DNA of 64,000 nt, from the NCBI GenBank assembly GCA_023485405.1, contig JAMCZU010000032.1:400-64399 (forward strand). The letters run 5' to 3'. Source of the DNA: Patescibacteria group bacterium. GTDB lineage: Bacteria > Patescibacteriota > UBA1384 > UBA12157 > JAENIV01. Each line of letters opens with the position of its first letter. Within the stretch, counting starts at the first letter, position 1. Under the pieces are notes generated by a model. The model had not been told where the DNA came from. It saw only the letters and a program-made list of their open reading frames with translations, and made no database searches. Positions 18,372 through 57,236 of the stretch are shown in pieces. Both the position numbers and the translations under genes were made by a program.

Positions 18372-18386
18372 AATATAAATAATTTC

Positions 18387-18433
18387 TTACATTCCTAAAC
18401 CTGTTGTCCACCTACGAGGTGGACATTTTGGTT
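18387..18433. repeat. REP2 element copy 1: ttacattcctaaacctgttgtccacct-acg-aggtggacattttggtt
   Basis: palindrome tgtccacct/aggtggaca with the same acg loop core as REP1; overlaps the folD 3' end. Confidence 0.75.
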
Positions 18434-24880: not shown

Positions 24881-25001
24881 AAATTTCTAAGCTCTAAATC
24901 CTAATTTCAAATAAAATTTCAAATGATTAAATGTCTAATTTAGATTTTGAAATTTGAATTTGGATATTTTATTTGGCATTAGTCATTAGGATTTTGGATT
25001 T
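24881..25001. repeat. AT-rich MITE-like element, copy C (~121 bp)
   Basis: aaatttctaagctctaaatcctaatttcaaataaaat ... cattagtcattaggattttggattt; abuts the metG stop. Confidence 0.7.
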
Positions 25002-35475: not shown

Positions 35476-35530
35476 TTTATTTCGATGATTACATTATTAT
35501 ACCGTATTTTAGACCAAAAGTCAATGGTTC

Positions 35531-35578
35531 TTTACATTCCTAAACCTATTGTCCACCTACGAGGTGGACATTTCGGTT
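35531..35578. repeat. REP2 element copy 2: tttacattcctaaacctattgtccacct-acg-aggtggacatttcggtt
   Basis: near-identical to the copy at 18387; abuts the dnaB stop. Confidence 0.75.
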
Positions 35579-38183
35579 ATGTCTCCTTTAGCTTCTTTTC
35601 GATGGTAGCAAACTTCATATATTCTGGTTTCCAGTAAAGTTGAACGTCGCCAGTGGGACCATGACGATGCTTGCGGATTAAAATTTCGGCAATATTTTTC
35701 TTTTCGGAATCTTGTTCATACATCTCGTCACGATAAATAAACATCACCACGTCGGCGTCTTGTTCTATGGAATTATGAACAACAATATCGTTAGCGATAA
35801 AATTATGGTTTTTTGGCACCGTTATATCATAAACTGATTCAACACCAACTTCCTTAATTTCAGCTATTTCATCCCAAAAAATATCCGAATCAGCCAAATC
35901 ACTAAGCACACCATCTCCTAAAACTTGGGCGATACTAGAAAGACGATTTCTAGAAATGCCATTATTATATCGCTGCGTGCCAGAATATGCCCATTGCATT
36001 TCTTGGTGGAATTGTCTCGTTGTCCAACCTAAATCCGTAAATTTTTGCACAATTTTCTGCCAAATATCTTTAGGAATAATATCAACATTAGTGTTTGGCT
36101 CGATTTGCCTTAAATCTTTAATTGCTTTTTTAACAATTTTATCTTTGCGACCAAAAATCCCGATCTCTTCCATAAATTTTAATTGATTTTCCGACCCTGA
36201 AATTACAAGATCAAAGACTGGCAAATACCCCCTCTTTTTATTGATTTTAATTCTTGATTGTATCTCAAAACGAAGCAATAAATGCTGTAAGCTTTTAATT
36301 AGTTTTTCACTTTTAGAAGCATAATGTAATCGCCAAATTCCCGAAGAAAAAGTCAAACCACCATCAGTTGAAAAAAGATGTCTGACAAAAAGAGCCAATT
36401 GCTTTTGAGATAATGTAAAGATAAGCTCAGGAATTTCTTTTTCACCAGAACGTTGGTCAAAAATCCCCAATTCTTCATCGAGCCACTTTACGATGGGATT
36501 TCTCCGACCACGAGCCAATGGCGCTGGTGCAGAAAGGTAAAGATGAAACCAAGTTTTTTGTTTAACTAAACGATTTTTTGTTCCAAATGCTTTTTGAGAC
36601 GCTCGATCAACAATACTAATACTTTCTGGATCAGCATTGGTGTAATGAAGTGGTTGATGTTTAAGATAGCATCCATCACCAATTAAATGAGCAAGTACAA
36701 TAATTTTTTCGTCTGACATTGTCACAATATTTTTAAAATCAATTCGCCGAGGGGTTGCTAACCGATCACCACCCGCTAATTTATCTAATCTCTCCCAGCC
36801 ATTAATAGTCATAAATTGATGATTGGCTGTTGCCTTAATTTTCCGGCCGCTTTTAAAAATAAGTTCAAAAACTTTTTTTCTTCCTGTTGAAAAGACTTTA
36901 TTGGCTATTTCTTTGAGTAATTTACCTTGTCCATCAACTGTTAAAACAGTAAATTCTTTTTGACCAACTAGTTTTTCAATTGGCTGGCAAATGCCTGTTT
37001 TAGCATTAAAAATTAAAGTGTCGCCGGTTAAACAACCACTCTCTCTAAGATCAGCTAACATTGGTTTTTTATCTGGACGGTGCTCCACTGCTCGGGATAG
37101 TTGCGATAAAGCTAATATTGGTACATTTAATTCCCTAGCTAAGGCTTTGAGTGAGCGGGAAATTTCCGAAACTTCTTGGACCCGATTGTCAGAACCCTTC
37201 GTGCTCATCCCCGACATTAATTGCAAATAATCAATCACAATTAAACCAAGATCTTGCTCCATCAAAAGTCGGCGACCTTTAGTTCTAATTTCCATCACAT
37301 TTAAAAAGGGTGAGTCATCAATAAAAATGGGTGTTTCTGAAAGCATCCCCATGGCATAATTTAATTTACCGAAATCTTCATCTTCCAAATTACCGGTACG
37401 TAACTTCCAGGAATCAACTGAACCTCGAAGGCACAAGAGTCGGTCAATAATCTGTTCTTTGGACATTTCCAACGAGAAAATTCCGACCGCTTGTTTATGT
37501 TCACAAGCAACATGATCGGCAATATTTAAAGCAAAAGCCGATTTACCCACCGACGGCCGAGCCGCCAGGATCACTAAATCTGATTTTTGCAAACCAGCCA
37601 GGACATTGTCTAAATCCCGAAAACCAGTCGGCACGCCTCGAATTGCCCCTTTTTCTTTGTGCAACTTGTCAATTCGATCAAAAGAATCAGCTAAAATATC
37701 TTTAATTGGCGTGAAATACTGTTTAACATATTTTTGCGAAACACTAAATAAAGTACTTTCGGCCCGATCTAAAATTGTCTCGAGTTCAGAATTTTCATCA
37801 AAACCAAGCTCGGTGATAGTCGCCGCGGCTGTGACTAAGCGCCTTAAAGTTGCTTTTTGATGAACAATATTAGCATAAGTTGTGATATGAGCAGCGGTTG
37901 GTACCGAATTGACCAAAGTAGCAATGTACGATGCACCACCAATACTTTTCAGTTTCTTATCTTTTTCTAATTCGTTGGTCAAAGTGACCACGTCAATCGG
38001 TTTTCGTTTTTCAAACAGTTTAATAATACAACTATATATAGTAGCGTGATCTTCGCGGTAAAAATCATCCGATCGCAAAATATCAGCCACTTTAATAATG
38101 GCATTTTGATCCAAAAGCACTGAACCTAGAACTGATTGCTCTGCTTCAATATTTTGTGGGGGAACCTTTATGCCGTCGGGCAT
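35577..38183 (-). CDS. dnaB: replicative DNA helicase DnaB containing an intein
   Basis: Walker A ARPSVGKSAF; H4 motif split as KPMLADLRESG|intein|SIEQDADVVMF. Confidence 0.9.
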   Translation of the reverse strand: MPDGIKVPPQNIEAEQSVLGSVLLDQNAIIKVADILRSDDFYREDHATIYSCIIKLFEKRKPIDVVTLTNELEKDKKLKSIGGASYIATLVNSVPTAAHITTYANIVHQKATLRRLVTAAATITELGFDENSELETILDRAESTLFSVSQKYVKQYFTPIKDILADSFDRIDKLHKEKGAIRGVPTGFRDLDNVLAGLQKSDLVILAARPSVGKSAFALNIADHVACEHKQAVGIFSLEMSKEQIIDRLLCLRGSVDSWKLRTGNLEDEDFGKLNYAMGMLSETPIFIDDSPFLNVMEIRTKGRRLLMEQDLGLIVIDYLQLMSGMSTKGSDNRVQEVSEISRSLKALARELNVPILALSQLSRAVEHRPDKKPMLADLRESGCLTGDTLIFNAKTGICQPIEKLVGQKEFTVLTVDGQGKLLKEIANKVFSTGRKKVFELIFKSGRKIKATANHQFMTINGWERLDKLAGGDRLATPRRIDFKNIVTMSDEKIIVLAHLIGDGCYLKHQPLHYTNADPESISIVDRASQKAFGTKNRLVKQKTWFHLYLSAPAPLARGRRNPIVKWLDEELGIFDQRSGEKEIPELIFTLSQKQLALFVRHLFSTDGGLTFSSGIWRLHYASKSEKLIKSLQHLLLRFEIQSRIKINKKRGYLPVFDLVISGSENQLKFMEEIGIFGRKDKIVKKAIKDLRQIEPNTNVDIIPKDIWQKIVQKFTDLGWTTRQFHQEMQWAYSGTQRYNNGISRNRLSSIAQVLGDGVLSDLADSDIFWDEIAEIKEVGVESVYDITVPKNHNFIANDIVVHNSIEQDADVVMFIYRDEMYEQDSEKKNIAEILIRKHRHGPTGDVQLYWKPEYMKFATIEKKLKET
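35772..37034 (-). other. intein (421 aa) with double-motif LAGLIDADG homing endonuclease in the DnaB H4 motif
   Basis: starts CLTGDTLI after RESG, ends IVVHN before SIEQDAD; internal LAHLIGDGCY and FVRHLFSTDGG LAGLIDADG-like motifs. Confidence 0.85.
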
Positions 38184-40115: not shown

Positions 40116-41990
40116 TTGACATCAACAGATTTAAAAAGAGCGATTGCTCAAAAAACAGCTATTCCACCAGAAGTAGTCGCTAAAACTCTTGATATTATTC
40201 AACAAACTATCAGTACCGAACTTTCGACCGGCCGAAGTGTTAATTTCCCAGGCTTTGGTAATTTTGTTTTAATTAAATATCCGCCCAGAACAATTAAAGA
40301 TGTTCGTAACCCCGCTAAAACTTATCTTTCTTTAGAAAAGAATAAAGCAAAATTCAGGCCAAGTCTTGACTTTAAAAAAGAGCTTCTTGAAAAACCAACG
40401 CCGCCAAAACAAGATACCACTCCAGAAAAAGAAAATAATTCTTTTGATCAGACAATTAATGTTTGTTATGTTGATTTATCGAAAACCACTGTGCCGAAAA
40501 AAATCTTAAATTTATTGCCGGAACACATCGCCCGTCATTATCAAATCGTTCCATTAGAAGAAAAAAATAACAAAATAGTAGTGGCAATGATTGATCCAGA
40601 AGATCGCGAAGCAATTGAATTTGTCAAAAAGAAGACGGGGATGGATCTAGATATTCGACTTTGCACTCAAGCAGATTTAAATCATGTTTTAGAACAGTAT
40701 TCGGCTGTTTCAGGCGAACTTAAGAAAATTATTGAATCCGCTGAAGAAGACGAGGAAATACCCACTCAAAAAGGACCAAGCAAAGAAAAAGTTGAAGAAA
40801 TCACTGAAACTGCCCCGGCCGCTAAAATTGTTCAATCACTGATTAAAAGAGCGGTTCGGGAAAAAGCTTCTGATATCCACATTGAACCTCAAGAAGAAGA
40901 AATTATTGTTCGATTTCGCGAAGACGGTATTTTAAAAGAAATCATTAAACTACCTAAAGAAATTCAAAGTGGTATTTCTTCACGAATTAAAATTCTTTCG
41001 GATATGAAAATTGACGAAACAAGATTGCCCCAAGATGGTCGCTTTCAAACTGTGCTTGATGGTGCCGAAGTTGATTTTCGCGTTTCCACTTTACCTACCG
41101 TCAACGGCGAAAAGGTAGTCATGAGAATTCTAGATAAATCAGCCGGTATTTTAACTCTGGAACAATTGGGACTGCGCGGCAGCGCTTTTGTCACACTTGA
41201 AGATAATATCCACAAAGCGCATGGGATGGTGTTAGTGACTGGCCCAACTGGTTCAGGTAAAACCACAACTCTATACGCTGTGATTGATAAAATCCAAAGT
41301 GTCGGGATAAATATTGTCACCTTGGAAGATCCGGTTGAGTACCGCATGCCTCGAGTTAATCAATCTCAAGTTTATACCAAAATCAATTTTACTTTTGCTA
41401 ACGGTCTTCGCTCGATTGTCCGTCAAGATCCAGATGTGATTATGATTGGGGAAATTCGAGACTACGAAACAGCCGATATGGCTATTCATGCCGCACTAAC
41501 GGGACATGTTGTTTTGTCAACCTTGCATACGAACGACGCCGCTGGTGCTATTCCTCGAATGATGGATATGAAAATTGAGCCATTTTTGATTAATTCATCG
41601 GTAAATTGTATTGTGGCGCAACGACTTTGCCGCCGGATTTGCGATAATTGCAAGGAAGAAATGACGGTTGACTCTTCTGAACAAAAACTGGCCGAAGAAG
41701 AACTAAAAAAAATGCCCGAAAAAGAAAAAAGACCAGAAAAAATTCAATTTTTCCACGGCAAAGGCTGCGAAAATTGTAATGGCACAGGTTACAAAGGCCG
41801 GATTGGTATTTTTGAAGTTTTTGATTTGAAAGATAATTTGAAAGAATTAGTTGCCAAACGGGCGTCAGGCACAATTTTAGGCCAAGAAGCCATTAAAAAC
41901 GGGATGGTGACAATGAAACAAGACGGTTTTTTAAAAGTAGTAGATGGCTTAACAACACTCGAGGAAGTCTGGCGAGTGACTAAAGACTAA
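40116..41990 (+). CDS. pilB: type IV pilus assembly ATPase PilB/GspE with an N-terminal HU/IHF-like DNA-binding domain; TTG start
   Basis: residues ~3-90 match the HU fold (GFGNFVL…RNPAKTY…KAKFRPSLDFKKEL); then GSPII_E N domain, Walker A VLVTGPTGSGKTTTLYA, and tetra-Cys CRRICDNC…CENCNGTGYKGR. Confidence 0.85.
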   Translation: MTSTDLKRAIAQKTAIPPEVVAKTLDIIQQTISTELSTGRSVNFPGFGNFVLIKYPPRTIKDVRNPAKTYLSLEKNKAKFRPSLDFKKELLEKPTPPKQDTTPEKENNSFDQTINVCYVDLSKTTVPKKILNLLPEHIARHYQIVPLEEKNNKIVVAMIDPEDREAIEFVKKKTGMDLDIRLCTQADLNHVLEQYSAVSGELKKIIESAEEDEEIPTQKGPSKEKVEEITETAPAAKIVQSLIKRAVREKASDIHIEPQEEEIIVRFREDGILKEIIKLPKEIQSGISSRIKILSDMKIDETRLPQDGRFQTVLDGAEVDFRVSTLPTVNGEKVVMRILDKSAGILTLEQLGLRGSAFVTLEDNIHKAHGMVLVTGPTGSGKTTTLYAVIDKIQSVGINIVTLEDPVEYRMPRVNQSQVYTKINFTFANGLRSIVRQDPDVIMIGEIRDYETADMAIHAALTGHVVLSTLHTNDAAGAIPRMMDMKIEPFLINSSVNCIVAQRLCRRICDNCKEEMTVDSSEQKLAEEELKKMPEKEKRPEKIQFFHGKGCENCNGTGYKGRIGIFEVFDLKDNLKELVAKRASGTILGQEAIKNGMVTMKQDGFLKVVDGLTTLEEVWRVTKD

Positions 41991-48908: not shown

Positions 48909-49289
48909 TTACTCGCCGAGGGCCTTTTTAATTTTGGCAATGACTTCACCAGGCATTGTTTCTGATTTAACAATATAGTCAGTCGCACCTAATTTTTTGC
49001 CCTGTGCCCGGTCAACATCTTGAATTAAAGCAGTCAGCATAATAATCGGTATATCTTTAAATTCTACGTCACCACGAAGATTCTTTAAAACATCAAAACC
49101 ATTTACTTTAGGCATCATGACATCTAAAATAACCAAGGCTGGTTTTATTTCTCGAGCTTTATTGAGTGCTTCTTCGCCATTTTTAGCTTGAACAATTGTA
49201 AAACCTTCGGCTTTGAGACGATCTTCGTACATTTCAAGTAATGTTAAATCGTCATCAACTAATAAAATTGTCTTTCCCGTCTGCTCCAT
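48909..49289 (-). CDS. single-domain CheY-like response regulator
   Basis: LLVDDD..., phospho-acceptor Asp in VILDVMMP, conserved T and K. Confidence 0.8.
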   Translation of the reverse strand: MEQTGKTILLVDDDLTLLEMYEDRLKAEGFTIVQAKNGEEALNKAREIKPALVILDVMMPKVNGFDVLKNLRGDVEFKDIPIIMLTALIQDVDRAQGKKLGATDYIVKSETMPGEVIAKIKKALGE

Positions 49290-49362
49290 AAAATTCCTTC
49301 TAGTTACAGTTACATTGTAACATGTAAATACAATCGGTCAAATTTGTCAAATCAATAGCTAA

Positions 49363-50088
49363 TCATTTGTTAACAATGAAGCGTAGATAAAAGAAGATAT
49401 CACTAGCGATAATTAAAAAAACAATCAAAACTAAAAAAAAGAGGACCAAAGATGAAGGTTTTTTTCGAGGTAGTGGTTCTGGTGGTGATTCTTTTAGTGC
49501 TAATGGTTCAAATTGAATTTCCGGTGATTCGGTCACATTTTGAGCCGAGGCGACCGGTGGAACAGGTGGCGGTGGAGGTGGTGGAGGGTTTTCTGGCGGT
49601 GGGGCAGCCGGTGGCGTAGCTGCTGGCGGTACGATTGGTGGGGCAGGATTTTCATTTTGCGGTTCAACATCCACCGCTTCAGTCACTGGTTTGGTTACCA
49701 CTTTTTTATGATACTTATTTAAAACATTTTCAATTTTTTTAATCACATCAGCCGGCATCACTTCTGATTTGATAATATAATCATCCGCGCCAGACTCAAT
49801 CGCCCGACTTTTGTTAATATCTCGAACTAGCGCCGACAAAATAATCACTGGTATATCTTTAGTCTGAGGATCGCTTTTAATTGAAGCTAATGTTTCGTAA
49901 CCATTGACTTTAGGCATCATAATGTCTAACAAAACAATGTCAGGTTTAACATGATGAATTTTGGCTAAACATTCTTCGCCATTACTCGATGTTTCCACCT
50001 TAAAACCGGCCAACTCCAACCTCTCCTTGTACATATCAAGGAGCATCTTGTCATCGTCAACCATTAAAACTTTAGTACTGTTGGGCAT
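49363..50088 (-). CDS. response-regulator receiver domain, proline-rich linker, C-terminal TM anchor (start at ATG 50088, not the upstream track Met)
   Basis: SD ggagggg then ATG CCC AAC (MPNSTKVLMVDDD); PPIVPPAATPPAAPPPENPPPPPPPP; C-terminal hydrophobic LVLFFLVLIVFLIIA. Confidence 0.6.
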   Translation of the reverse strand: MPNSTKVLMVDDDKMLLDMYKERLELAGFKVETSSNGEECLAKIHHVKPDIVLLDIMMPKVNGYETLASIKSDPQTKDIPVIILSALVRDINKSRAIESGADDYIIKSEVMPADVIKKIENVLNKYHKKVVTKPVTEAVDVEPQNENPAPPIVPPAATPPAAPPPENPPPPPPPPVPPVASAQNVTESPEIQFEPLALKESPPEPLPRKKPSSLVLFFLVLIVFLIIASDIFFYLRFIVNK

Positions 50089-50425
50089 TTCCCCTCCGCT
50101 CCGTGTTTTGCGTTCCTCACACGGAAGCAAAACCGGAAGTCCGCCAAAGTGAAATCTATTTGCAGATTCCAATAATTTGGATACTGCAAGAGATTGAACG
50201 CCGGCGGGTATCTACATTTATATATTTATTATACAACTAAATTTTGTGTCAAGCAACGTCAGTTGCACAATGGTCTTTTAAGCGAGCCATGTGTCTATCA
50301 AAGTAAATCGCGGAGCCGAGCGGGCAGGTGTGAACGCAGTGAACGAGCGAGGCGAGCGCTTAGGACCGATTTTCACGCTGGGAAAATCGAGTCCGGTACT
50401 TTGATGGACACTGGCGAGCGATCTC
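50089..50425. other. 337-nt region with no convincing ORF, GC-rich (~50%) at its pheS-proximal end; candidate ncRNA or structured leader
   Basis: the only ORF (50194..50472) is Arg-rich junk; contains stable hairpins (cgattttc..gaaaatcg, ccgtgt..acacgg); a TTGACA/TATAAT-like promoter for the response regulator sits near 50236-50262 (minus strand). Confidence 0.25.
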
Positions 50426-51148
50426 TTAAAACTGCTTTAAAAAACGTAAATCATTGGCATAAAAAACTCTAATATCAGAAATCCCATATTTCATCATTGT
50501 TAACCTATCTATGCCAACACCAAAAGCAAAACCAGAAACTTTTTCCGGATCATAATTTGCTGCCTTAAAAACATTTGGATGAACCATACCAGCACCCAAA
50601 AGTTCCACCCAACCGGTCTGTTTGCAAGTCTGACAACCCTTACCCCCACAAATAGTGCAACTGACATCCACTTCCATCCCTGGCTCCACAAAAGGAAAAT
50701 AACCTGGTCGCCATCTAATTTTTGTACTTTCGCCAAAAAACTCTTTGATAAATTGCGCTAAAGCGCCCTTTAAGTCAGCCATGGAAACATTTTTATCAAC
50801 TACTAGTCCTTCAATCTGGTAAAAATTGGGTGAATGGGAAGCATCGGCCGCATCACGACGAAAAACTTCTCCGGGAATAATAATTTTAAAAGGTGGTTGA
50901 TGTTTTTCCATATAAGCCACTTGGCCCGCCGAGGTTTGAGTGCGTAATACTTTGTTTTGTTGACCTTTAACCACAAAAGTGTCTTGCATGTCACGTGCAG
51001 GGTGGTCTTTCGGCATATTTAAGGCGTCAAAATTATACCATTCACTTTCGATATCTGGTCCTTCGACCATTTCAAAACCAAGCTTCTGGAAAATCGAAAC
51101 CAATTTTCGTTCGACTTGAGTTAAGGGGTGTAAATGACCTTTTAACAT
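50426..51148 (-). CDS. pheS: phenylalanyl-tRNA synthetase alpha subunit (short form)
   Basis: class II motifs (FRRDAADASHSPNFYQIEGL, GAGMVHPNV); no pheT follows. Confidence 0.9.
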   Translation of the reverse strand: MLKGHLHPLTQVERKLVSIFQKLGFEMVEGPDIESEWYNFDALNMPKDHPARDMQDTFVVKGQQNKVLRTQTSAGQVAYMEKHQPPFKIIIPGEVFRRDAADASHSPNFYQIEGLVVDKNVSMADLKGALAQFIKEFFGESTKIRWRPGYFPFVEPGMEVDVSCTICGGKGCQTCKQTGWVELLGAGMVHPNVFKAANYDPEKVSGFAFGVGIDRLTMMKYGISDIRVFYANDLRFLKQF

Positions 51149-51157
51149 AACCTTATT

Positions 51158-51586
51158 TTAGCAAGAGTGTATGTTAAATTCAAGAAATTGATTGACGGTG
51201 AGTATTTCAATATTTTTAAATTGCTTTAGTACTAACAAATGCTTATCACCTGTGACTAAATAACCCGCTCCTGCCATCAGCGCTGTTTCAATAATAAGAT
51301 TATCGTCTAGATCAGAAGAAATATTTTGCAAACTACCTCCTAATGGCACCATTTGGACCAATTCTAAAATTACTTCAATTAGTTCTTCGAGCTTTTCGTA
51401 AGGCAAGTTAAAATCTTCAGTCAACACCTCTTTTAATTCTTGTAATATGGCCATCGAACAAAAAATCTGGCATTTTTGTTGCGCCAGATCAATTGCTTTT
51501 TTGGGATTTCCGCCAAACAACACGGCCGAGATCCAAATATTGGTATCAAAAACAACTTTATTTTTCACCATACCGTCTTTCGGCAA
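51158..51586 (-). CDS. vapC: PIN-domain toxin (VapC-like)
   Basis: VVFDTNIWISAVLFGG and acidic residues of the PIN fold. Confidence 0.75.
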   Translation of the reverse strand: MPKDGMVKNKVVFDTNIWISAVLFGGNPKKAIDLAQQKCQIFCSMAILQELKEVLTEDFNLPYEKLEELIEVILELVQMVPLGGSLQNISSDLDDNLIIETALMAGAGYLVTGDKHLLVLKQFKNIEILTVNQFLEFNIHSC

Positions 51587-51821
51587 TAGCTTTATCTATC
51601 TTATCAGCATCGATTTTTTTACCTTTGGCAAATCTTTTTCCCCACCGAGAAATATTTTCCCAGTTCGATTTACTACGAATGTACTTTTTGGCACCAATCC
51701 GAAGAACATCGCTGCGGCTTAAAGCTTCTTTTTTGGCAAATTTGTCAATCTCATCAAGAGTTTGCTCCGTAAATGAAATATTGACTGTTTTTAAAACCAT
51801 TTTTATCCTTTCGCAACACAT
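51558..51821 (-). CDS. vapB: ribbon-helix-helix (CopG-like) antitoxin; probable start at the MVLKTVNISF Met
   Basis: KTVNISFTEQTLDEIDKFAKKEALSRSDVLRIGAKKY RHH pattern; overlaps vapC. Confidence 0.6.
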   Translation of the reverse strand: MCCERIKMVLKTVNISFTEQTLDEIDKFAKKEALSRSDVLRIGAKKYIRSKSNWENISRWGKRFAKGKKIDADKIDKAIAERRYGEK

Positions 51822-51959
51822 TAATTAATATATAAATAGTTGTTGCGCCCTCCATAGCTAAATCTATTTTGAGAAGAGAAATAATCATCTACTTCTCAAA
51901 GAGATTGAGCGAAGGATGGGCTATTCTTATAATATACAAATTTTGTATGTTTGTCAAAG

Positions 51960-52010
51960 TTACAACTCTTCGGCTTCTTTGGTGGGACGAGCCAGTGGTT
52001 TCATATCACC
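51960..52010 (-). repeat. punctuation repeat copy M1, encoding mini-ORF MKPLARPTKEAEEL (51960..52004) with its own SD
   Basis: ttacaactcttcggcttctttggtgggacgagccagtggtttcatatcacc; SD aggtga 3-4 nt before the ATG; minus-strand TTGACA-17-TATTAT promoter immediately downstream. Confidence 0.6.
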
Positions 52011-52011
52011 T

Positions 52012-52425
52012 TTATGTAATATTCGAGTTTTGATTCTGCGCCTTGAGATTATTCGGAAATAAATAGCTAATCAACCAAATAAAAATAATATTTGCAACTA
52101 TTAATGTAATAAAGAAATAAGAAAAATAAGTTATAAAGTTAAATTCCCAGGAACGGGAAAAGAAGTTACCAATAATTAAAATCATGATCAAGCTCCCTAA
52201 TTCACTTAATATTAAACTAAACCATCTTGCCCAAACTTTCCTTTTTATTTCACAGATAAAAATTAGTAACATAAAAATAAATATGGAATTTAAAGTGATC
52301 GCTTCAATAAAAAAGGTTATACTGAGACCAATATTATCATAACTTCCTGTTATACTGTTAGCCAATAAAAGTGATAATAAAGTTAAAAAGAATAAAGATA
52401 TCATGAAAATTATAAACTTACTCAT
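52012..52425 (-). CDS. small 4-TM membrane protein, unknown
   Basis: 137 aa, four hydrophobic helices. Confidence 0.4.
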   Translation of the reverse strand: MSKFIIFMISLFFLTLLSLLLANSITGSYDNIGLSITFFIEAITLNSIFIFMLLIFICEIKRKVWARWFSLILSELGSLIMILIIGNFFSRSWEFNFITYFSYFFITLIVANIIFIWLISYLFPNNLKAQNQNSNIT

Positions 52426-52642
52426 AACTTAGAATTCATTTTTTATTTTTATCCTTAAAGTTCTTCGGCTTTTGGGTTTAAATATTGCTCAATAATTTTA
52501 ATATTCTCTAAATCTTTTGGTATGTTCATCATCTTTTTCCAAGCAATCAAATCTTCAAGACGGATAAATTTAATTTTTTCAATTCATCTAATAAGTCTTT
52601 CATTTTGTCCTTTAGAAAAATTTAATCACAATACTAGTAAAA

Positions 52643-52981
52643 CTAACCTATTAAATAATCTATTATTCCAGTTAATATATACCATGTGGAGAAAAACATT
52701 AAAAATGAAGTTATTGTTACAGCCAATATTACAACAAAAGCATCACCAAACGAACGTCCTTCTCTTTTACATAAAATTAATTGAACAATTACCGAGATCA
52801 AACAAGTAAAGAAAATAAAAATTAGACCGTATATAAAAACACCTAAACTTGCCCCAAAGTCGCCATCGCCTATAATATAGTTATAAAATGAAAAACATAT
52901 TCCCACAACAGCTAAAAATGTTAGAACACTGCCGAAAATATATAAAGTTAACCTATTTTGTAACCAAGCTTCTCCATTCAT
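52643..52981 (-). CDS. small 3-TM membrane protein, unknown
   Basis: 112 aa; its start ATG overlaps the stop of mini-ORF M2 (TAATG). Confidence 0.4.
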   Translation of the reverse strand: MNGEAWLQNRLTLYIFGSVLTFLAVVGICFSFYNYIIGDGDFGASLGVFIYGLIFIFFTCLISVIVQLILCKREGRSFGDAFVVILAVTITSFLMFFSTWYILTGIIDYLIG

Positions 52982-53030
52982 TACAACTTCTCTGCCTCTT
53001 TGGACGGTTGAACTAATGGCTTCATATCGC
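52981..53030 (-). repeat. punctuation repeat copy M2, encoding mini-ORF MKPLVQPSKEAEKL (52981..53025)
   Basis: ttacaacttctctgcctctttggacggttgaactaatggcttcatatcgcc; in-frame with hicA, separated from it by a single TAA. Confidence 0.6.
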
Positions 53031-53037
53031 CTATTTT

Positions 53038-53268
53038 TTAGCCTTTAAGTAATCTACGAAATTCTTCAACTGAAAGACCAGCCCTTCTAATTTGCGAATG
53101 AAGTAATCCTGGGGCTAATTCTTTATGATTTGGTATTGAAAGCGGTGGTCGACCGGGACTGTTGGAATATAAAATCATATGGCTACCTTCTTGATGATCT
53201 AATTGATAGCCAATTTTTGAGAAAACTTTTACCGCTTTCTTACCAGAAATATTAGATAATATCCCCAA
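53038..53268 (-). CDS. hicA: HicA-family (YcfA-like) mRNA interferase toxin
   Basis: KVFSKIGYQLDHQEGSHMILYSN...PLSIPNHKELAPGLLHSQIRRAGL. Confidence 0.65.
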   Translation of the reverse strand: MGILSNISGKKAVKVFSKIGYQLDHQEGSHMILYSNSPGRPPLSIPNHKELAPGLLHSQIRRAGLSVEEFRRLLKG

Positions 53269-53517
53269 TTAAACTCCTACAGTTACATAACGAATTTCTT
53301 CAGATGGAACAATTTTGTGATGTTTTTTGATAACTTTTAAATATCCACTGATAGCTTCTTGAATATTTTTTAAAGCTTCTTCTTCGGTTTTCCCCTGACT
53401 CATACAGCCGGGAAGAGTTGGAGCATCAGCAATAAACCCCTCATATTCAGGATCATATTCTAGATAAATTTTGAATTTTTTCATTTTAAATCTCCGCAAT
53501 ATAAATATATCAGTCAA
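53269..53517 (-). CDS. hicB: HicB-family (UPF0150) antitoxin, TTG start
   Basis: YEGFIADAPTLPGCMSQGKTEEEALKNIQEAISGYL. Confidence 0.65.
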   Translation of the reverse strand: MTDIFILRRFKMKKFKIYLEYDPEYEGFIADAPTLPGCMSQGKTEEEALKNIQEAISGYLKVIKKHHKIVPSEEIRYVTVGV

Positions 53518-53560
53518 ACAAGCAATTGTAAATAATCATAATTTTCGATTATTTAATCAT

Positions 53561-53599
53561 TTACAACTCCTCGGCTTCTTTGGCTAGGATGAATAATAT
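53561..53599 (-). repeat. punctuation repeat copy M3 (degenerate; no ATG, peptide remnant ..ILAKEAEEL)
   Basis: ttacaactcctcggcttctttggctaggatgaataatattt. Confidence 0.5.
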
Positions 53600-54217
53600 T
53601 TAATTAAATTTAACAGTTGTTAAGATTTCTTGGAAATAAACAGGATCAGCTAGTCCGTCCTTTATGATAGCTAAAAGATAATGTCGGTCTTTCACAAATA
53701 TCTCAGTGGTCCCTTGTCCAAATCTTTGCTTTTCTGCTTGAGTCTCATTTAAAGCTTCGTGACTATCTATTGTTGTCATCGATGTTTGTCCGTCGGGATT
53801 TTCTTGTTGCCATTGCTTCGCCATATCATCAAACGATAAGTCATTAACATCACGAATATCACTCTCAGGCGAAACGCTACTATCAAATTGGGCATTAAAA
53901 CTAATCGCCTTAGCTTCTTGATCCGATAATATTTCTTTTGGATTATATTTCTCTGGTTGGACTGTTATCAATCCTAAATTACTGTCATATAAATACCAAT
54001 TAGAAGGATATTTAAAAGAATAGCCATATTTCGTATTTGCAAAAGTTTTCCAGTCAGAAGTATCGATATTTGGTGCTAGACTAGTAGAATTTGGAGTATT
54101 TGTTGGCGAAGTCTGAAATTTAGTCGAGCTATTTTTAGACAACCAAAAAATTACTCCTACCGATACTAACAATAGAACCCCCAAAATAATTAATAAAATC
54201 TTTAAAGTTTTGGTCAT
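53600..54217 (-). CDS. signal-anchored secreted protein, unknown
   Basis: N-terminal TM/signal then a polar 180-aa domain; its ATG directly abuts the stop of mini-ORF M4 (TTATAAATG). Confidence 0.4.
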   Translation of the reverse strand: MTKTLKILLIILGVLLLVSVGVIFWLSKNSSTKFQTSPTNTPNSTSLAPNIDTSDWKTFANTKYGYSFKYPSNWYLYDSNLGLITVQPEKYNPKEILSDQEAKAISFNAQFDSSVSPESDIRDVNDLSFDDMAKQWQQENPDGQTSMTTIDSHEALNETQAEKQRFGQGTTEIFVKDRHYLLAIIKDGLADPVYFQEILTTVKFN

Positions 54218-54262
54218 TTATAATTCTTCGGCTTCTTTGGGCGGCTGGGCTAATGGCTTCAC
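54218..54262 (-). repeat. punctuation repeat copy M4, encoding mini-ORF (V/M)KPLAQPPKEAEEL with GTG start
   Basis: ttataattcttcggcttctttgggcggctgggctaatggcttcac; GTG overlaps the TGA of the upstream gene (GTGA); closest in sequence to the kinase tail. Confidence 0.55.
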
Positions 54263-54555
54263 AACCCAAGCGATTTGGCAAATTCGATTACTTTTTCTTC
54301 AGTGATTTCGTTTACAACATAGGTAATACGAAAATAAACTTTATTATCTATTGTGTCAATGCTAAAAATCCCCGGAATATGATTATTCCCTTGGGTATAC
54401 TCAAGATACTCGCATAAGTCACTATGAAACTTTTTTAAAATATCTTGGTTTTTATCTAAAATTTCAAAATAAAGATCTCGACTTTTGAAATTAGCAAAGA
54501 TTGTAAAACCTCGTTTAAATTTGGGAATATCTTTTGGAAGAATTTGTTTAACCAT
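54259..54555 (-). CDS. hypothetical small protein
   Basis: 98 aa, no recognizable motif. Confidence 0.3.
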   Translation of the reverse strand: MVKQILPKDIPKFKRGFTIFANFKSRDLYFEILDKNQDILKKFHSDLCEYLEYTQGNNHIPGIFSIDTIDNKVYFRITYVVNEITEEKVIEFAKSLGL

Positions 54556-54634
54556 CTAATTGTATCCTTATATTTGTATTATATATTGAATTTGCAAATT
54601 TAAAAGGGATTAGTATTGAACTAACCCCCAAATG

Positions 54635-55294
54635 TTACCATACAAGAAAAGGCAATGCCGCAACAGAAATTACGGCGGCAGTATAAGCAATCGAGGAAGC
54701 AGCCCACGATGGTAAGGATGTTGACTGAGAAATTGCATCGCGTACTGTTTTTCGTATATTTGTAAAAGTGCCTCTTGTTGTTCGACAAAAACCGCTCGGT
54801 GGGTTCCAAATCCCAAACTGTGGACCATTTTGCCACCATGATATTAGATGAGCATTAAAGAGATCTTGGTTAGTCCACCTATCCTTAATATGCAAATTCA
54901 AATGCCAACCATTTCTTCCGATACAACCACCGACATTTCCTGGTTCCCAACGAATCATACAACGGTATCTGCCAACATTCCAACCAGCTCTCGTTTGAGA
55001 TTGAGTTTGAGATTGACTTACCTCTTCGACATCGAATTCAATATCAGACTCGTTTTGTGCTGACGCTGTTGCTACTACCTTCAACCGCTCAACTTCAGAA
55101 CCAGTTGGCTCATCGAAAGATGTTAACTGGAACTCTCCATTGTCATCACTAAAAATAACAATGGCGGATCCAGAATTTGTACTTTCTGCATCAGATGCTG
55201 ATCCTGTTGCAACAACCGTTTCATTGTGCCCACCGCCACCACCACAACCAGCAAGAATTACACAAACAACAAACAATACGAGTAATACTTTCAA
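54635..55294 (-). CDS. lipoprotein (TTG start at 55294; the track ORF extends upstream to 55333)
   Basis: SD aaaaggggga then TTG AAA GTA... giving MKVLLVLFVVCVILAGC with lipobox LAGC; GC-richer than neighbours. Confidence 0.5.
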   Translation of the reverse strand: MKVLLVLFVVCVILAGCGGGGGHNETVVATGSASDAESTNSGSAIVIFSDDNGEFQLTSFDEPTGSEVERLKVVATASAQNESDIEFDVEEVSQSQTQSQTRAGWNVGRYRCMIRWEPGNVGGCIGRNGWHLNLHIKDRWTNQDLFNAHLISWWQNGPQFGIWNPPSGFCRTTRGTFTNIRKTVRDAISQSTSLPSWAASSIAYTAAVISVAALPFLVW

Positions 55295-55388
55295 GGTACT
55301 TTCCCCCTTTTGATCGTGTAGCACTAAAAACAATACCAGCTATATTAAAAGGAATTTCTAATATTATGTCAATATTTTGAGTACTTTT

Positions 55389-57236
55389 TTACAACTCTTC
55401 GGCTTCTTTGGGCGGCTGGGCTAAAGGTTTTAATTCTTCTTTGTTTTTGGGCACTTGGGCCTCAAGATCTTGGATCTCTTTTTGCACTTTAGCCTCGGGC
55501 AAAGAAAAAGTAAAAGTCGAACCTTTGCCTTGACCTTCGCTGTCAGCCCAGACCCGACCATGATGAAGCTCAACTAAGGCTCGGGTAATATAGAGTCCTA
55601 AACCAGTGCCCTGCGATTCGGCGGTGGTGTAATCGCCCACTCGATGAAATTTCTTAAATAATTTCGGCAATTCTTCTTTAGGAATACCAATGCCTTGATC
55701 TTTAACATGAATTAAAATTTGCCGTGGACCTACCAATCGCTTTAGCCGCTCATCCACCGCCGATTTAATCGCCTCTTGATCATCTAATGGCCCGTCCTTA
55801 ATCATTCCTTCAATTTTACTCCAAGTTGCTTGGACTTGCTCCGTTGGCACGGTTTCGATAAGGAGCTGAATTTCGCCCGGCTCTTTGGAATATTTAATCG
55901 AGTTACCAATTAAATTCACCAAAATTTCCTTGATTTTATCGGAATCGCCAAAAGTTTCCCAATGATTGGCATTTTGAAAAACAATTTTTTGCTTTCTTTC
56001 CTCGGCCTTGAATTTTAATTCATCAATGGTTTGTTCAATGACGCCCGTCAGACTGACTTCTTTCTTTTCAACCAAGAGTCTTCCTTCTTCGATGCGAGAG
56101 ACATTTAACATATCTGTGACGAGCCTGGCCAAGCGCTTGGCCGAAGCATAAACCCGATCCATATAATGAATGGCCTTGGGATCATCAATTCTCGCCAATT
56201 TTTCATCCAGCATCATTGAAAGATAACCTTCGATCGCTGAAACAGGTGTTAATAATTCATGGCTCGCCAAGGATACAAATTCGGTTTTCATCTTGTCGAG
56301 TTCCTTGAGATGTTCGTTGGCATGAGCCAATTGTTCAGCTGTTTCTTCTAGTTGCTTGCGAAATTCAATTTCTCGCTTAACAGACTTAATTAGAAGATAG
56401 CCGCCATAACAAACTATTGTTAAAATAATGAAATCAATAAATCTTTCTTCGATAGTTTCCGAAAAAATAAGTTGAGCTAAAAGCGCTAGCACGACAACCC
56501 CTAAAGCTGTTTCGGTTAAAATAACTTTAATATCAAAAAGCTCGTACTTAATAATTGCATATGCCGTAAAACTTACTAAAATAACTGATGAAACATAGCC
56601 AAAGTTACTTAAAAACTCAAATGTTGTTCCAAAAAATGCAGGTAATATAACATCTGTAACAATTATTACTGAACTAGAAATTATTGCTCCAGCAAATAAC
56701 CACTTTATTTTTTTCTTGGATTCTTCGTTAGATTTTTTATAATTGATTAAAATTAACGAGATAAAAATAATTAGATTAATAAGAATACCTATTAAAAATA
56801 CTGGTAACAATTGTCCGTACTCAAAGGTAAGTATATTATTTTGAAAATAAATTCTTCCAATAAAACTTGGACTCAAGGCAATTATCGAAATAAATATTGA
56901 GATTAATAAACAAAAAACATCAACAAATTTCATAATTTTTATATTTTCTGAGATTTTTTGAGGAAAATAAATAATAAAATGTACTAACAAATAAAGTACA
57001 AGAGCACCTAAGGTATACGTTAGTCTTGCCCAAAGTAAATTTAAATTATATGTTTGGTTAATTAATGTTAAAAGATTTACAGCTTGCCAAACCGCAATAG
57101 AAAAAGCTAGATATGAAAAGTTAAGAGAATTATTTTTCTTCCATCCTTCATTAGTAACTAGAGTTATAAAACCTAAAAATAAGGTTAAACAAATTATTAT
57201 AATTAGAAAAGAAAGTAATGTATTACTCAAATCCAT
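55389..57236 (-). CDS. multi-TM sensor histidine kinase; last 14 codons (55389-55432) are punctuation-repeat copy M5
   Basis: ~8 TM helices, HisKA H-box LASHELLTPVSAIEGY, HATPase_c G-boxes; C-terminal KPLAQPPKEAEEL identical to mini-ORF M4. Confidence 0.85.
   Translation of the reverse strand: MDLSNTLLSFLIIIICLTLFLGFITLVTNEGWKKNNSLNFSYLAFSIAVWQAVNLLTLINQTYNLNLLWARLTYTLGALVLYLLVHFIIYFPQKISENIKIMKFVDVFCLLISIFISIIALSPSFIGRIYFQNNILTFEYGQLLPVFLIGILINLIIFISLILINYKKSNEESKKKIKWLFAGAIISSSVIIVTDVILPAFFGTTFEFLSNFGYVSSVILVSFTAYAIIKYELFDIKVILTETALGVVVLALLAQLIFSETIEERFIDFIILTIVCYGGYLLIKSVKREIEFRKQLEETAEQLAHANEHLKELDKMKTEFVSLASHELLTPVSAIEGYLSMMLDEKLARIDDPKAIHYMDRVYASAKRLARLVTDMLNVSRIEEGRLLVEKKEVSLTGVIEQTIDELKFKAEERKQKIVFQNANHWETFGDSDKIKEILVNLIGNSIKYSKEPGEIQLLIETVPTEQVQATWSKIEGMIKDGPLDDQEAIKSAVDERLKRLVGPRQILIHVKDQGIGIPKEELPKLFKKFHRVGDYTTAESQGTGLGLYITRALVELHHGRVWADSEGQGKGSTFTFSLPEAKVQKEIQDLEAQVPKNKEELKPLAQPPKEAEEL

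What the first reader, a model, noticed from the sequence alone, without database searches (positions are those of the whole stretch)
51958..55435. Accessory-gene array punctuated by five direct repeats that encode a coupled 14-aa proline-rich mini-ORF, the same sequence that forms the C-terminal tail of the adjacent histidine kinase
Five copies of a 45-50-bp motif (consensus TTACAACTCTTCGGCTTCTTTGGGCGGCTGGGCTAATGGCTTCATATCGCC) start at 51960, 52981, 53561, 54218 and 55389, all in the same orientation. Each lies immediately 3' of one minus-strand gene and 5' of the next. On the coding strand four copies read as a tiny ORF: MKPLARPTKEAEEL (own SD AGGTGA), MKPLVQPSKEAEKL, (V)KPLAQPPKEAEEL (GTG start overlapping the upstream TGA), and the true C-terminus of the sensor kinase (…KPLAQPPKEAEEL*). 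The third copy is a decayed remnant. In two copies the mini-ORF stop overlaps or abuts the next gene's ATG (TAATG at 52981; TTATAAATG at 54217), the classic geometry of translational coupling or a leader peptide. The HicA stop is in-frame with mini-ORF M2, separated only by a TAA. The genes between the repeats are classic cargo: VapBC, HicAB, two tiny polytopic membrane proteins, a secreted protein and a lipoprotein, with patchy GC. Copies nearest the kinase are most similar and distal ones decay, as expected from serial insertion at one site (the kinase 3' end) or from a cassette system whose recombination site doubles as a uORF. No integrase is visible nearby. I am not aware of a described system with this architecture. 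The PPK motif in the peptide could make coupling depend on ribosome stalling.
Basis: seen in the sequence. Interest (0 to 1): 0.85.

Follow-up and report, generated by a model that had tools for sequence, protein, structure and literature searches.

The report
Displaced kinase gene ends mark insertions
The repeated "mini-ORF" is real, but it is a series of left-over 3' ends of a sensor kinase gene, which mark where small foreign gene packets were inserted one after another behind that kinase in an uncultured Patescibacteria genome, and not a new leader-peptide or cassette machine.

Summary
There are five direct copies at the stated coordinates, plus a sixth remnant at 52455-52475, and none elsewhere in the 64 kb. 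An independent assembly is 100% identical across the array.

The interpretation needs changing. About 120 homologous kinases end in ...KPLA.P.K.AEE[LI], and KPLA.P is invariant in 32 aligned. The "start codon plus SD" of two mini-ORFs are the codons K-G-D-M of a kinase tail variant found in the closest relatives.

A relative (L002) has kinase and PheS 78 nt apart, so 51149-55388 is inserted DNA. The same kinase/downstream-gene gap is empty or filled with 0.4-7 kb in related genomes. Roughly 10 of 35 related loci carry one to four extra kinase-end fragments.

These fragments stop at the kinase stop codon but start 24-190 nt upstream. They differ mostly at synonymous sites (pS 0.5-0.8, pN 0-0.15). 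No fold, Rfam match or integrase was found.

Best reading: a gene-transfer hotspot. Foreign segments of [donor kinase end + adjacent cargo] entered by recombination anchored in the kinase gene, and each left a kinase end behind. This resembles Rhs/CDI "C-terminal displacement". A hidden site-specific recombinase is not excluded.

The parts
55389..57236 (-). Sensor histidine kinase (7TM-HisKA-HATPase_c), 615 aa. Its last 13 codons plus stop (55389-55430) are repeat copy R5, the active tail.
   Evidence: Pfam hits to HisKA_7TM, HisKA and HATPase_c. 120 homologues share the tail. KPLA.P is invariant in 32 aligned sequences.
54259..55333 (-). Insert segment next to the kinase: a 232-aa ORF with an LAGC lipobox-like motif (54635-55333) and a 98-aa protein of unknown family (54259-54555).
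   Evidence: ORFs. No family reaches its curated Pfam cutoff, and there are no NCBIfam or PADLOC hits. Lipobox-like motif noted by eye only. Terminator-like hairpin at 54605-54629.
54218..54262 (-). Copy R4: kinase-end fragment (V)KPLAQPPKEAEEL*. Its stop abuts the ATG of the next gene (TAAATG).
   Evidence: It differs from R5 by four changes, all synonymous.
53600..54217 (-). Cargo: 205-aa PsbP_2-like protein with an N-terminal membrane anchor.
   Evidence: Pfam PF18933, E 4.6e-7. No homologue other than itself among 5.8 billion proteins.
53561..53584 (-). Copy R3: truncated kinase-end remnant, ...AKEAEEL* (8 codons).
53038..53517 (-). Cargo: HicB (probable start at 53486) and HicA toxin-antitoxin pair, with a promoter-like site at 53504-53532.
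   Evidence: Pfam; promoter scan. Homologues with 78-85% nucleotide identity occur in L095 (inside a kinase-end array) and in L089 and L092 (at other loci, without kinase ends).
52981..53034 (-). Copy R2: kinase-end fragment (I)GDMKPLVQPSKEAEKL*. Its stop overlaps the ATG of the next gene (TAATG).
   Evidence: The GDM tail type is the one carried by kinases P0002 and P0003.
52643..52981 (-). Cargo: 112-aa hydrophobic protein (membrane protein by eye).
   Evidence: ORF. A 35%-identical homologue lies directly behind the active kinase end in L095.
52455..52475 (-).
   Evidence: Matches GCCGARGARYTNTAA, with 0.01 matches expected by chance in the window. Translation.
52012..52425 (-). Cargo: 137-aa hydrophobic protein (membrane protein by eye).
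   Evidence: ORF. No family hit.
51960..52016 (-). Copy R1: kinase-end fragment (L)HKGDMKPLARPTKEAEEL*. It is 89-93% identical to the kinase ends of L001.
51158..51957 (-). VapB (RHH, 51558-51800) and VapC (PIN_3, 51158-51586), with a promoter TTGACA-17-TATTAT (51929-51957) that starts 2 nt after the R1 stop codon.
   Evidence: Pfam; promoter scan, 11 of 12 matches. The same promoter lies directly behind the active kinase stop in L003 and L008.
48909..51148 (-). Conserved downstream flank: PheS (50426-51148) and two response regulators (49363-50172, 48909-49289).
   Evidence: Syntenic with L002, where PheS starts 78 nt after the kinase stop. Pfam Response_reg.

Best explanation
The six repeat units are 3'-terminal fragments of histidine kinase genes. 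One is the working end of the resident kinase. The other five are relics.

The interval between this kinase and the next conserved gene (PheS here, a response regulator in most relatives) is a horizontal-transfer hotspot in Berkelbacteria-like Patescibacteria. DNA from related lineages entered repeatedly. Each incoming piece carried the end of the donor's kinase gene plus whatever small accessory genes lay directly behind it in the donor.

I infer that integration was anchored by homology in the conserved 3' part of the kinase gene. There are two possible routes. One is homologous exchange at one end with an illegitimate join at the other. The other is a single crossover with a circularised fragment. 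Either route leaves an intact kinase, the new cargo, and an extra kinase end that runs to the stop codon but begins at a variable point upstream.

Repeating this gives the observed order: kinase - end - cargo - end - cargo, and so on. The 'mini-ORFs', their Met codon, the apparent Shine-Dalgarno sequence, and the stop/start overlaps with the next gene are then inherited features of former kinase-to-cargo junctions.

Shown here: the identity of the repeats as kinase ends, the empty site, the recurrence in other genomes, and the foreign or once-functional origin of the copies. Inferred: the recombination route, and the order in which the pieces arrived.
For: 1. The tail belongs to the kinase family. 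Nearly all of the 120 listed homologues end in ...KPLA[RKQ]P.K.AEE[LI], and K603, P604, L605, A606 and P608 are invariant in 32 aligned sequences. P0002 and P0003 end in GDMKPLARPTKQAEEL, which matches R1 and R2 including the 'start' and the 'SD'.

2. There is an empty site. In L002 the kinase stop and the PheS start are 78 nt apart, and the PheS, response-regulator and PilMNO genes are syntenic with the window. L087 has a single 0.4-kb insert, and L085 has 6 kb with four extra kinase ends.

3. A second clade shows the same pattern. L092 and L093 are empty, while L090, L094 and L096 carry 3.8-6.7 kb. In these three the right border maps to one point about 20 nt after the kinase stop.

4. Extra kinase ends recur in L001/L085, L003, L004/L081, L016, L094, L095 and L096, and also in L025 and L033, whose kinases have an unrelated tail type.

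5. The copies end at the stop codon, or beyond it at +17 in L095 and +48 including a terminator hairpin in L016. They begin anywhere from 24 to 190 nt upstream.

6. The copies diverged under coding constraint. In the window pS is 0.48-0.84 and pN is 0-0.15. In L025, over 38 codons of a catalytic-domain fragment, pS is 0.45 and pN is 0.03.

7. One copy is clearly foreign. The L096 fragment at 6221-6372 is 89% identical to the L092 kinase but only 78% identical to its own kinase.

8. Kinase end and cargo appear to travel together. The VapB promoter sits 2-8 nt after the tail stop in the window (R1) and after the active kinase ends of L003 and L008. HicBA in L095, whose kinase has a different tail type, is preceded by an EEL-type remnant ending GAGTTGTAA-A, as in the window. 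The CYTH gene abuts a copy as TAAATG in L001.

9. Illegitimate joins are visible. Cargo ORFs end in a kinase tail (L033, L096) or start inside a kinase fragment (L096).

10. There is no sign of a dedicated site or enzyme. No Rfam match and no fold beyond shuffled controls (z -0.4 to -1.1). No tyrosine or serine recombinase among all 56 window ORFs of at least 140 aa, plus several smaller ones in and beside the array. None was recognised by eye in the arrays of relatives, most of which were not scanned against Pfam. No viral contig carries the tail or the kinase.

11. The background is plausible. Hotspots without mobile elements that turn over by recombination in flanking core genes are over-represented in transformable bacteria (PMC5635113). 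One-sided homologous integration, and single crossovers that duplicate the homologous segment, are documented (PMC3240628). Natural competence has been shown in Saccharibacteria, and com genes are conserved across CPR (PMC10633639).
Against: The recombination route is inferred only. No donor/recipient pair or polymorphic population was found: all contigs carrying the same kinase carried the same array, and no relative closer than 63% kinase identity exists in the databases.

It is not settled which copy is the native tail. R5 is as similar to L002 as the rest of the gene is (77-81%). R1 is 88-90% identical to L085. With 57 nt these figures do not discriminate.

Homologous exchange between segments that are only 70-90% identical over 45-120 nt would be inefficient.

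The genome outside the 64-kb window could not be searched, because the MAG is not in the genome collection. A recombinase encoded elsewhere cannot therefore be excluded.

Some inserts carry no extra kinase end (L087, L090), so more than one route operates at this site.
Confidence: 0.6

Rival explanations
1. A dedicated cassette platform, integron-like or resembling tandem accretion of integrase-less cis-mobilizable elements. A site-specific recombinase encoded elsewhere recognises a site in the kinase 3' end and inserts circular cassettes that each carry one copy of that site.
For: Direct repeats bound one- or two-gene units of 0.6-1.2 kb in a single orientation, with typical cassette cargo such as toxin-antitoxin pairs. 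Insertions map within about 20 nt of the kinase stop in several genomes. The 3' edge of the repeat is sharp at the stop codon. The rest of this genome could not be searched.
Against: No tyrosine or serine recombinase was found among all 56 window ORFs of at least 140 aa, and none was recognised in any of about ten arrays in other genomes.

The repeat length varies from 24 to 190 nt instead of having fixed ends. There is no hairpin or inverted-repeat structure.

Arrays exist on kinases with unrelated tail sequences (KPLARMG*, HEGEGPVLQLK*), which would require many co-evolved enzymes.

Internal kinase fragments that lack the stop-proximal part occur (L096, at -186 to -35).

The HicBA operon found at other loci has no flanking tail. 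The cassettes carry their own promoters.
Confidence: 0.2
2. The relic tails have been kept, or co-opted, as translated mini-ORFs. Their translation is coupled to the gene behind them and drives or tunes its expression.
For: R1 and R2 have an ATG with a purine-rich stretch upstream, and R4 has a GTG. R2 and R4 overlap or abut the next start codon. The reading frames are intact, and differences between copies are mostly synonymous.
Against: The start and the 'SD' are ordinary kinase codons (K-G-D-M) present in working kinases. Synonymous-dominated divergence is equally seen in a 38-codon catalytic-domain fragment that cannot be a leader peptide (L025).

Copies in L016 have stops directly upstream and no start. 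R3 and the 52455 remnant are truncated. R1 and R3 are followed by cargo with its own promoter 75-160 nt away. PPK is not conserved across the tail family.
Confidence: 0.1
3. Local duplication. The kinase end was copied in place by slippage or unequal crossing-over, and unrelated genes later landed between the copies.
For: The copies are direct repeats of one short segment, close together and all in one orientation.
Against: Synonymous divergence between the copies is close to saturation (pS up to 0.84) while the peptide is preserved. This is not expected for untranslated duplicates drifting in place. R1 is closer to another species' kinase end than to the resident one. The L096 fragment is closer to the L092 kinase than to its own.
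Confidence: 0.04

Closest known systems
Rhs and CdiA 'orphan' arrays (C-terminal displacement; Jackson et al. 2009 as cited in PMC3150448; Poole et al. 2011, PMC3150448)
   Same: A full-length gene is followed by an ordered series of 3' fragments of that same gene. Each fragment is followed by small associated genes. The fragments usually lack translation initiation signals and keep varying amounts of upstream homology. The modules are exchanged between genomes. No dedicated recombinase is known.
   Different: In Rhs and CdiA the displaced part is a polymorphic toxin domain with a cognate immunity gene, and the conserved homology lies upstream of it. Here the displaced part is a short conserved tail (8-60 codons) of a signalling kinase, and the cargo is unrelated accessory genes. 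No toxin-delivery function is involved.
Horizontal-transfer hotspots between core genes that lack mobile elements (Oliveira, Touchon and Rocha 2017, PMC5635113)
   Same: Gene content is variable between two conserved flanking genes across relatives. There is no integrase or transposase. Turnover is attributed to recombination in the flanking core genes, especially in transformable bacteria.
   Different: The general model is double homologous exchange, which leaves no scars. Here many events left partial copies of one flanking gene, so individual acquisition events can be counted.
Integrative elements at the 3' end of a gene (tRNA, tmRNA or protein-coding genes), and their tandem accretion with integrase-less cis-mobilizable elements (from my own knowledge of ICESt1/ICESt3-type elements at the 3' end of fda; not checked in a paper here)
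   Same: The insertion restores the target gene's 3' end and leaves a displaced copy. The result is a set of direct repeats that end at the end of the gene, and elements can pile up in tandem.
   Different: Those repeats are att sites of defined length, recombined by an integrase carried on at least one element. Here no integrase was found, the units are 0.6-1.2 kb, and repeat length varies widely.
Integron cassette arrays
   Same: Small units, mostly of one or two genes in the same orientation, separated by a recurring sequence, with frequent toxin-antitoxin cargo.
   Different: No intI gene and no attI. The recurring sequence is coding sequence of the neighbouring gene, without attC-type inverted repeats or folding. 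The cassettes have their own promoters.
Homology-facilitated illegitimate recombination, and single-crossover integration of fragments with one homologous segment (PMC3240628)
   Same: Both need only one region of homology. The single-crossover route duplicates that region on either side of the insert (109-950 bp in the cited experiments).
   Different: Those are laboratory events in other bacteria. Nothing here shows directly which route was used.

Membership tests
Integron | An intI tyrosine recombinase gene next to the first cassette (attI and Pc platform) | tested here: not met
   Pfam scans of all 56 window ORFs of at least 140 aa, plus several smaller ones, found no Phage_integrase or resolvase domain. 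The gene next to the array is the kinase.
Integron | attC sites: imperfect inverted repeats (R''-L''...L'-R') that fold as a hairpin on one strand | tested here: not met
   No inverted repeat lies within the units. Folding of four copies and both strands gave z-scores between -1.1 and +1.2 against shuffles.
Integrative element / cis-mobilizable element accretion | Direct repeats (att) flanking each unit, ending at the 3' end of the target gene | tested here: met
   Six copies, all ending at the stop codon.
Integrative element / cis-mobilizable element accretion | An integrase on at least one element, and att sites with a common core of fixed extent | tested here: not met
   No integrase was found in the window (Pfam) or recognised in about ten related arrays, most examined as ORF lists only. 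Repeat extents are 24, 21, 45, 54 and 57 nt in the window and 24-190 nt elsewhere.
Rhs/CdiA-type C-terminal displacement array | A full-length gene followed by 3' fragments of the same gene, each with associated downstream genes | tested here: met
   Kinase plus five downstream kinase-end fragments, each followed by cargo. The same layout occurs in L001, L016, L095 and L096.
Rhs/CdiA-type C-terminal displacement array | The displaced part is a polymorphic toxin domain paired with an immunity gene | tested here: not met
   The displaced part is a conserved 8-19-residue tail of a HisKA/HATPase_c kinase. The cargo has no PADLOC hit.
Leader peptide / upstream ORF with translational coupling | Own initiation signals, conserved wherever the element occurs | tested here: not met
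   Only R1 and R2 have an ATG, and it is the Met of the GDM tail variant of working kinases. R3 and the 52455 remnant have none. The L016, L025 and L033 copies have no start or are fused to other ORFs.
Leader peptide / upstream ORF with translational coupling | Translation of the small ORF, and dependence of the downstream gene on it | not testable with these tools
   Needs ribosome profiling or reporter fusions.
REP/BIME-type dispersed repeat | Many copies dispersed through the genome; palindromic | tested here: not met
   Copies occur only behind the kinase in 64 kb, and only behind kinases in 167 related loci. They are not palindromic. Genome-wide distribution could not be checked.
Mobile-element-free HGT hotspot between core genes | Conserved flanking genes with variable content between them across related genomes, and no mobility genes | tested here: met
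   The gap is 78 nt in L002, 0.5 kb in L087, 4.2 kb in the window and 6 kb in L085. It is about 0.1 kb in L092 and L093 and 3.8-6.7 kb in L090, L094 and L096.

The most novel reading that the evidence does not exclude
The kinase 3' end is the docking site of a genuine, so far undescribed gene-capture system of Patescibacteria. A recombinase encoded elsewhere in the genome (or a host factor) would insert and excise small promoter-bearing cassettes at the end of a conserved sensor kinase gene. The retained kinase-tail ORFs would then give translational coupling to some cassettes. That would be an integron-like platform with neither an intI gene next to the array nor structured attC sites.
Probability: 0.12. 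Interest if true: 0.8.

Novelty: new variant of a known kind. Interest (0 to 1): 0.42.

Why it matters
The array works as a readable log of gene acquisition in an uncultured, ultra-small bacterium. Each relic kinase end marks one import and carries sequence from its donor lineage, so events can be counted and in principle traced. Ordinary transfer hotspots leave no such scars.

The same site is used across many Berkelbacteria-like genomes and carries toxin-antitoxin pairs, small membrane proteins, CYTH, radical-SAM and methyltransferase genes. This points to recombination anchored in a conserved core gene as a practical route of gene gain in Patescibacteria, where mobile elements are scarce and natural competence has been demonstrated.

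It also extends 3'-end displacement, so far described for polymorphic toxin genes, to an ordinary signalling gene.

For annotation, it is a warning that short conserved ORFs with plausible start signals behind a gene may be fragments of that gene.

Tried and rejected
- **Generic dispersed repeat:** rejected. There are no copies outside the kinase locus in the window or in 167 related loci.
- **Structured RNA or attC-like site:** rejected. No Rfam hit at E up to 1 and no fold beyond shuffled controls.
- **Phage or plasmid carrier of the site:** two scans of viral contigs, one for the tail DNA and one for kinase relatives, found nothing.
- **Integrase in the window:** all 56 ORFs of at least 140 aa were scanned, plus several smaller ones. 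The only mobility-type protein is a REP-associated Y1 transposase-like ORF 48 kb away. It has its own palindromic repeats and is unrelated to the kinase-end repeat.
- **Strain-level polymorphism of arrays:** contigs carrying identical kinases (P0027 on 9 contigs, P0002 on 4) all had the same array, so no gain or loss event was caught.
- **Homologues of the PsbP_2-like cargo, to find a donor context:** none exist apart from the protein itself.
- **Which copy is the native tail:** not resolved. The identity differences over 57 nt are too small to decide.
- **The tail as part of a self-contained HicBA cassette:** rejected. The same operon in L089 and L092 sits at other loci without any tail.
- **Diversity-generating retroelement (template and variable repeat at a gene's 3' end):** considered and dropped. 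There are six copies, the differences are synonymous rather than adenine-specific, and no reverse transcriptase is present.
- **The sixth 'copy' reported by the repeat finder inside the kinase (55428-55460, 73%):** it is only the similar neighbouring stretch PKNKEEL / PKEAEEL, and I did not count it.

Full report

Yes. The repeat finder reports a family of direct repeats starting at 51960, 52981, 53561, 54218 and 55389. The 23-mer TTACAACTCTTCGGCTTCTTTGG matches four of these with at most 3 mismatches, against none in 100 shuffles. The degenerate core GCCGARGARYTNTAA has five matches against 0.01 expected, and one of them is a further remnant at 52455-52469 (...NPKAEEL*) between the two small hydrophobic-protein genes. 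No copy lies elsewhere in the 64 kb. A Logan contig assembled from run SRR10267473 is 100% identical to window 51135-55608, so the array is not a binning or assembly artefact.

Pfam confirms a 7TM-HisKA-HATPase_c kinase at 55389-57236 and the cargo HicB/HicA, RHH/PIN_3 (VapBC-like) and a PsbP_2-like anchored protein. Three further cargo proteins have no family: a 232-aa ORF with a lipobox-like LAGC motif (noted by eye) and two hydrophobic small proteins.

**2. What the repeated sequence is**

The kinase has about 650 homologues at E up to 1e-20. The window's own protein comes from a Patescibacteria MAG, and the nearest relative, 63% identical, is from Berkelbacteria. The last 60 residues of the 120 best hits show that almost all end in ...KPLA[RKQ]P.K.AEE[LI]. 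In an alignment of 32 of them, K603, P604, L605, A606 and P608 are invariant. The 'mini-ORF' peptide is therefore the conserved C-terminal tail of this kinase family.

Two of the nearest kinases, P0002 and P0003, end in ...GDMKPLARPTKQAEEL. R1 reads HKGDMKPLARPTKEAEEL and R2 reads IGDMKPLVQPSKEAEKL. The ATG of these two mini-ORFs is thus the Met of that tail variant, and the 'AGGTGA' Shine-Dalgarno sequence is the codons Lys-Gly-Asp.

**3. The empty site and the hotspot**

A scan of species-representative genomes with the kinase alignment returned 80 loci. In L002 the kinase stop is followed after 78 nt by PheS (86% identical to the window's PheS). After that come the two response regulators and PilO/N/M, in the same order as in the window. 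Hence window 51149-55388, VapBC included, is inserted DNA relative to that arrangement.

In the same clade, L087 has one 123-aa gene between the kinase and PheS with no extra kinase end. L085 (identical array to L001) has 6 kb with four extra kinase ends.

In a second clade found in metagenomes, L092 and L093 have the response regulator about 0.1 kb behind the kinase, whereas L090, L094 and L096 carry 3.8, 6.7 and 5.2 kb. In these three, homology to the empty sites stops at the kinase stop codon and resumes at one point about 20 nt behind it. In most distant relatives the kinase is followed directly by its response regulator. The kinase/downstream-gene junction is therefore a recurrent insertion point.

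**4. Extra kinase ends are common at this site**

I searched the last 75-150 nt of each kinase against its own downstream DNA. Copies turned up in these loci:
- L001/L085: four copies.
- L003: one copy, behind a VapBC pair.
- L004/L081: one copy.
- L016: three copies, tail type KPLARMG*.
- L094: two copies.
- L095: two copies plus a remnant of another tail type.
- L096: three copies.
- L025 and L033: copies of an unrelated tail, ...HEGEGPVLQLK*, from a kinase subfamily only about 34% identical to the window's.

By my count about 10 of 35 distinct loci of the KPLA-tail type carry at least one copy.

The copies end at the stop codon, or run on into the native flank (+17 nt in L095; +48 nt including a terminator hairpin in L016). 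Their 5' limit ranges from 24 to about 190 nt upstream of the stop. L025 copy 1 covers 39 codons reaching into the ATPase domain (WFESKGEGRGTTFFFTLP...). L096 6221-6372 is an internal fragment (-186 to -35).

Some copies are fused to cargo. A methyltransferase in L033 and a 146-aa ORF in L096 end in the kinase tail, and a 198-aa ORF in L096 begins inside a kinase fragment.

**5. The copies were once parts of working kinase genes, mostly foreign ones**

Between the window's copies, differences are overwhelmingly synonymous. R5 against R4 shows four synonymous and no non-synonymous changes. Other pairs give pS 0.61-0.84 and pN 0.08-0.15. The same holds in L001 (pS 0.28-0.51, pN 0.04-0.08) and in the 38-codon L025 fragment (pS 0.45, pN 0.03). 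The L025 fragment cannot function on its own, so this pattern cannot there be ascribed to selection on a small peptide.

The simplest reading is that the copies diverged while they were ends of functional kinases in different lineages and were then brought together. R1 is 89-93% identical to the L001 kinase ends, while the window's and L001's kinase genes are 81% identical over their last 317 nt. The L096 fragment is 89% identical to the L092 kinase but 78% to its own.

**6. What moved**

Several observations suggest that the transferred unit was a kinase end together with the cargo behind it.
- The VapB promoter (TTGACA-17-TATTAT, with an internal palindrome) begins 2-8 nt after the tail stop codon in three genomes: behind R1 in the window, and behind the active kinase ends of L003 and L008.
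- HicBA of the window has a homologue in L095 with 78% nucleotide identity. The L095 kinase has a long, different tail (...FENFPITDEELKKRNHEK*), yet its HicBA is preceded by a decayed EEL-type remnant ending GAGTTGTAA-A, as in the window. It is followed by a copy of the local tail with its native +17 flank.
- Stop/start abutments (TAAATG behind R4 and behind an L001 copy; TAATG behind R2) look like operon junctions with a real upstream gene.
- The same HicBA operon (82-85% nucleotide identity) sits at other loci in L089 and L092 with no kinase tail on either side. The tail is therefore a property of the kinase locus, not of a self-contained cassette.

**7. Mechanism**

I found nothing that points to a dedicated site-specific system.
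- No tyrosine or serine recombinase among all 56 window ORFs of at least 140 aa, plus several smaller ones in and beside the array.
- None recognised in the arrays of relatives. L081/L082 and L085/L086 have precomputed Pfam annotation; the others I examined only as ORF lists.
- No viral contig with the tail or the kinase.
- No Rfam match, no inverted repeats, and no folding beyond shuffled controls.
- No fixed repeat length.

The features seen are a sharp 3' limit, a ragged 5' limit, allelic copies, gene fusions and occasional inserts without any copy. They fit integration of related foreign DNA anchored by homology in the conserved 3' part of the kinase gene. This could be homologous exchange at one end with an illegitimate join at the other. 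It could also be a single crossover with a circularised fragment, which duplicates the homologous segment. Both are documented experimentally (PMC3240628).

Hotspots without mobile elements that turn over by recombination in flanking core genes are known and are enriched in transformable species (PMC5635113). Natural competence has been shown for Saccharibacteria, and com genes are conserved across CPR (PMC10633639). The window itself encodes a type IV pilus cluster next to the locus.

This step is inference. I found no donor/recipient pair, and I could not settle whether R1 or R5 is the native tail. A recombinase encoded outside the window remains possible, because this genome is not in the searchable genome collection.

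**8. Comparison with known systems**

The architecture is closest to the 'orphan' arrays behind rhs and cdiA genes. There, 3' fragments of the main gene retain varying amounts of upstream homology and usually lack initiation signals, and they lie in series with their associated small genes (PMC3150448, which cites Jackson et al. 2009 for 'C-terminal displacement'). The difference is that here the gene is a signalling kinase, the displaced piece is a short conserved tail rather than a polymorphic toxin, and the cargo is unrelated accessory genes.

The array is not an integron: there is no intI, no attC structure, and the cargo has its own promoters. It does not meet the definition of accreted integrative elements: there is no integrase and no fixed att core. 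It is not a REP-type repeat.

**9. Verdict**

The proposed coupled mini-ORF or new cassette system is not supported. What remains is a recurrent acquisition hotspot in Patescibacteria that leaves readable scars. That is a new variant of known phenomena, of moderate interest.

Noticed in passing
window 2671-4175: A 225-aa Y1 (IS200-like) transposase ORF at 2701-3378(-) resembles REP-associated tyrosine transposases (Pfam Y1_Tnp E 5e-10; NCBIfam NF047646 at 60.6 bits, below its cutoff of 80). It is bracketed by three copies of a 34-nt palindromic element (TCCGACACCTCGTAGGTGTCGGAG...) at 2671, 3418 and 4142. This looks like a REP/RAYT unit in a Patescibacteria genome.
   Followed up: partly
window 18349-18438 and 35494-35583: A 90-nt direct repeat (76% identical) containing the hairpin GTCCACCTACGAGGTGGAC. 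The hairpin resembles the palindromes next to the Y1 transposase.
   Followed up: no
window 13226-13358, 14269-14392, 17887-17946, 24881-25002: An AT-rich intergenic repeat family of about 60-130 nt (TTTGACATTTGGATTTT... and AAATTTCTAAGCCCTAAATCC...) at four intergenic places. Its function is unknown.
   Followed up: no
window 40116-41990 (+): The PilB-type secretion ATPase (T2SSE with an MshEN domain) carries an N-terminal HU-type DNA-binding domain (Bac_DNA_binding, E 8e-13). This is an unusual fusion for a pilus motor in a possibly competent organism.
   Followed up: no
window 35577-38183 (-) and 31921-34887 (-): The DnaB helicase carries an intein with a LAGLIDADG domain, and the UvrD-like helicase also contains an intein splicing domain.
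   Followed up: no
L016 958-1041, 2368-2451, 4442-4521: In this relative the repeated unit includes the last roughly 35 nt of the kinase and also 48 nt beyond the stop, with a GC-rich hairpin (CCCGCCTTTGGCGGG). The whole gene end, terminator included, was copied.
   Followed up: partly
L096 2492-2932 and 6333-6929; L033 13559-14263: Cargo ORFs are fused to kinase fragments. Two end in the kinase tail, and one starts with MEAQAPKKESLKP from a kinase fragment. These look like chimeric genes made by the insertion events.
   Followed up: partly
L089 4747-5177 and L092 5533-5985: Close homologues (82-85% nucleotide identity) of the window's HicBA operon sit several kb upstream of the kinase in these genomes, without kinase-end remnants. 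The operon moves between loci as well as between genomes.
   Followed up: partly
window 55428-55460: Just upstream of the tail, the kinase contains a similar stretch (PKNKEEL against PKEAEEL; 73% nucleotide identity to the repeat). It may be an old internal duplication of the tail, or chance similarity in a charged low-complexity region.
   Followed up: no
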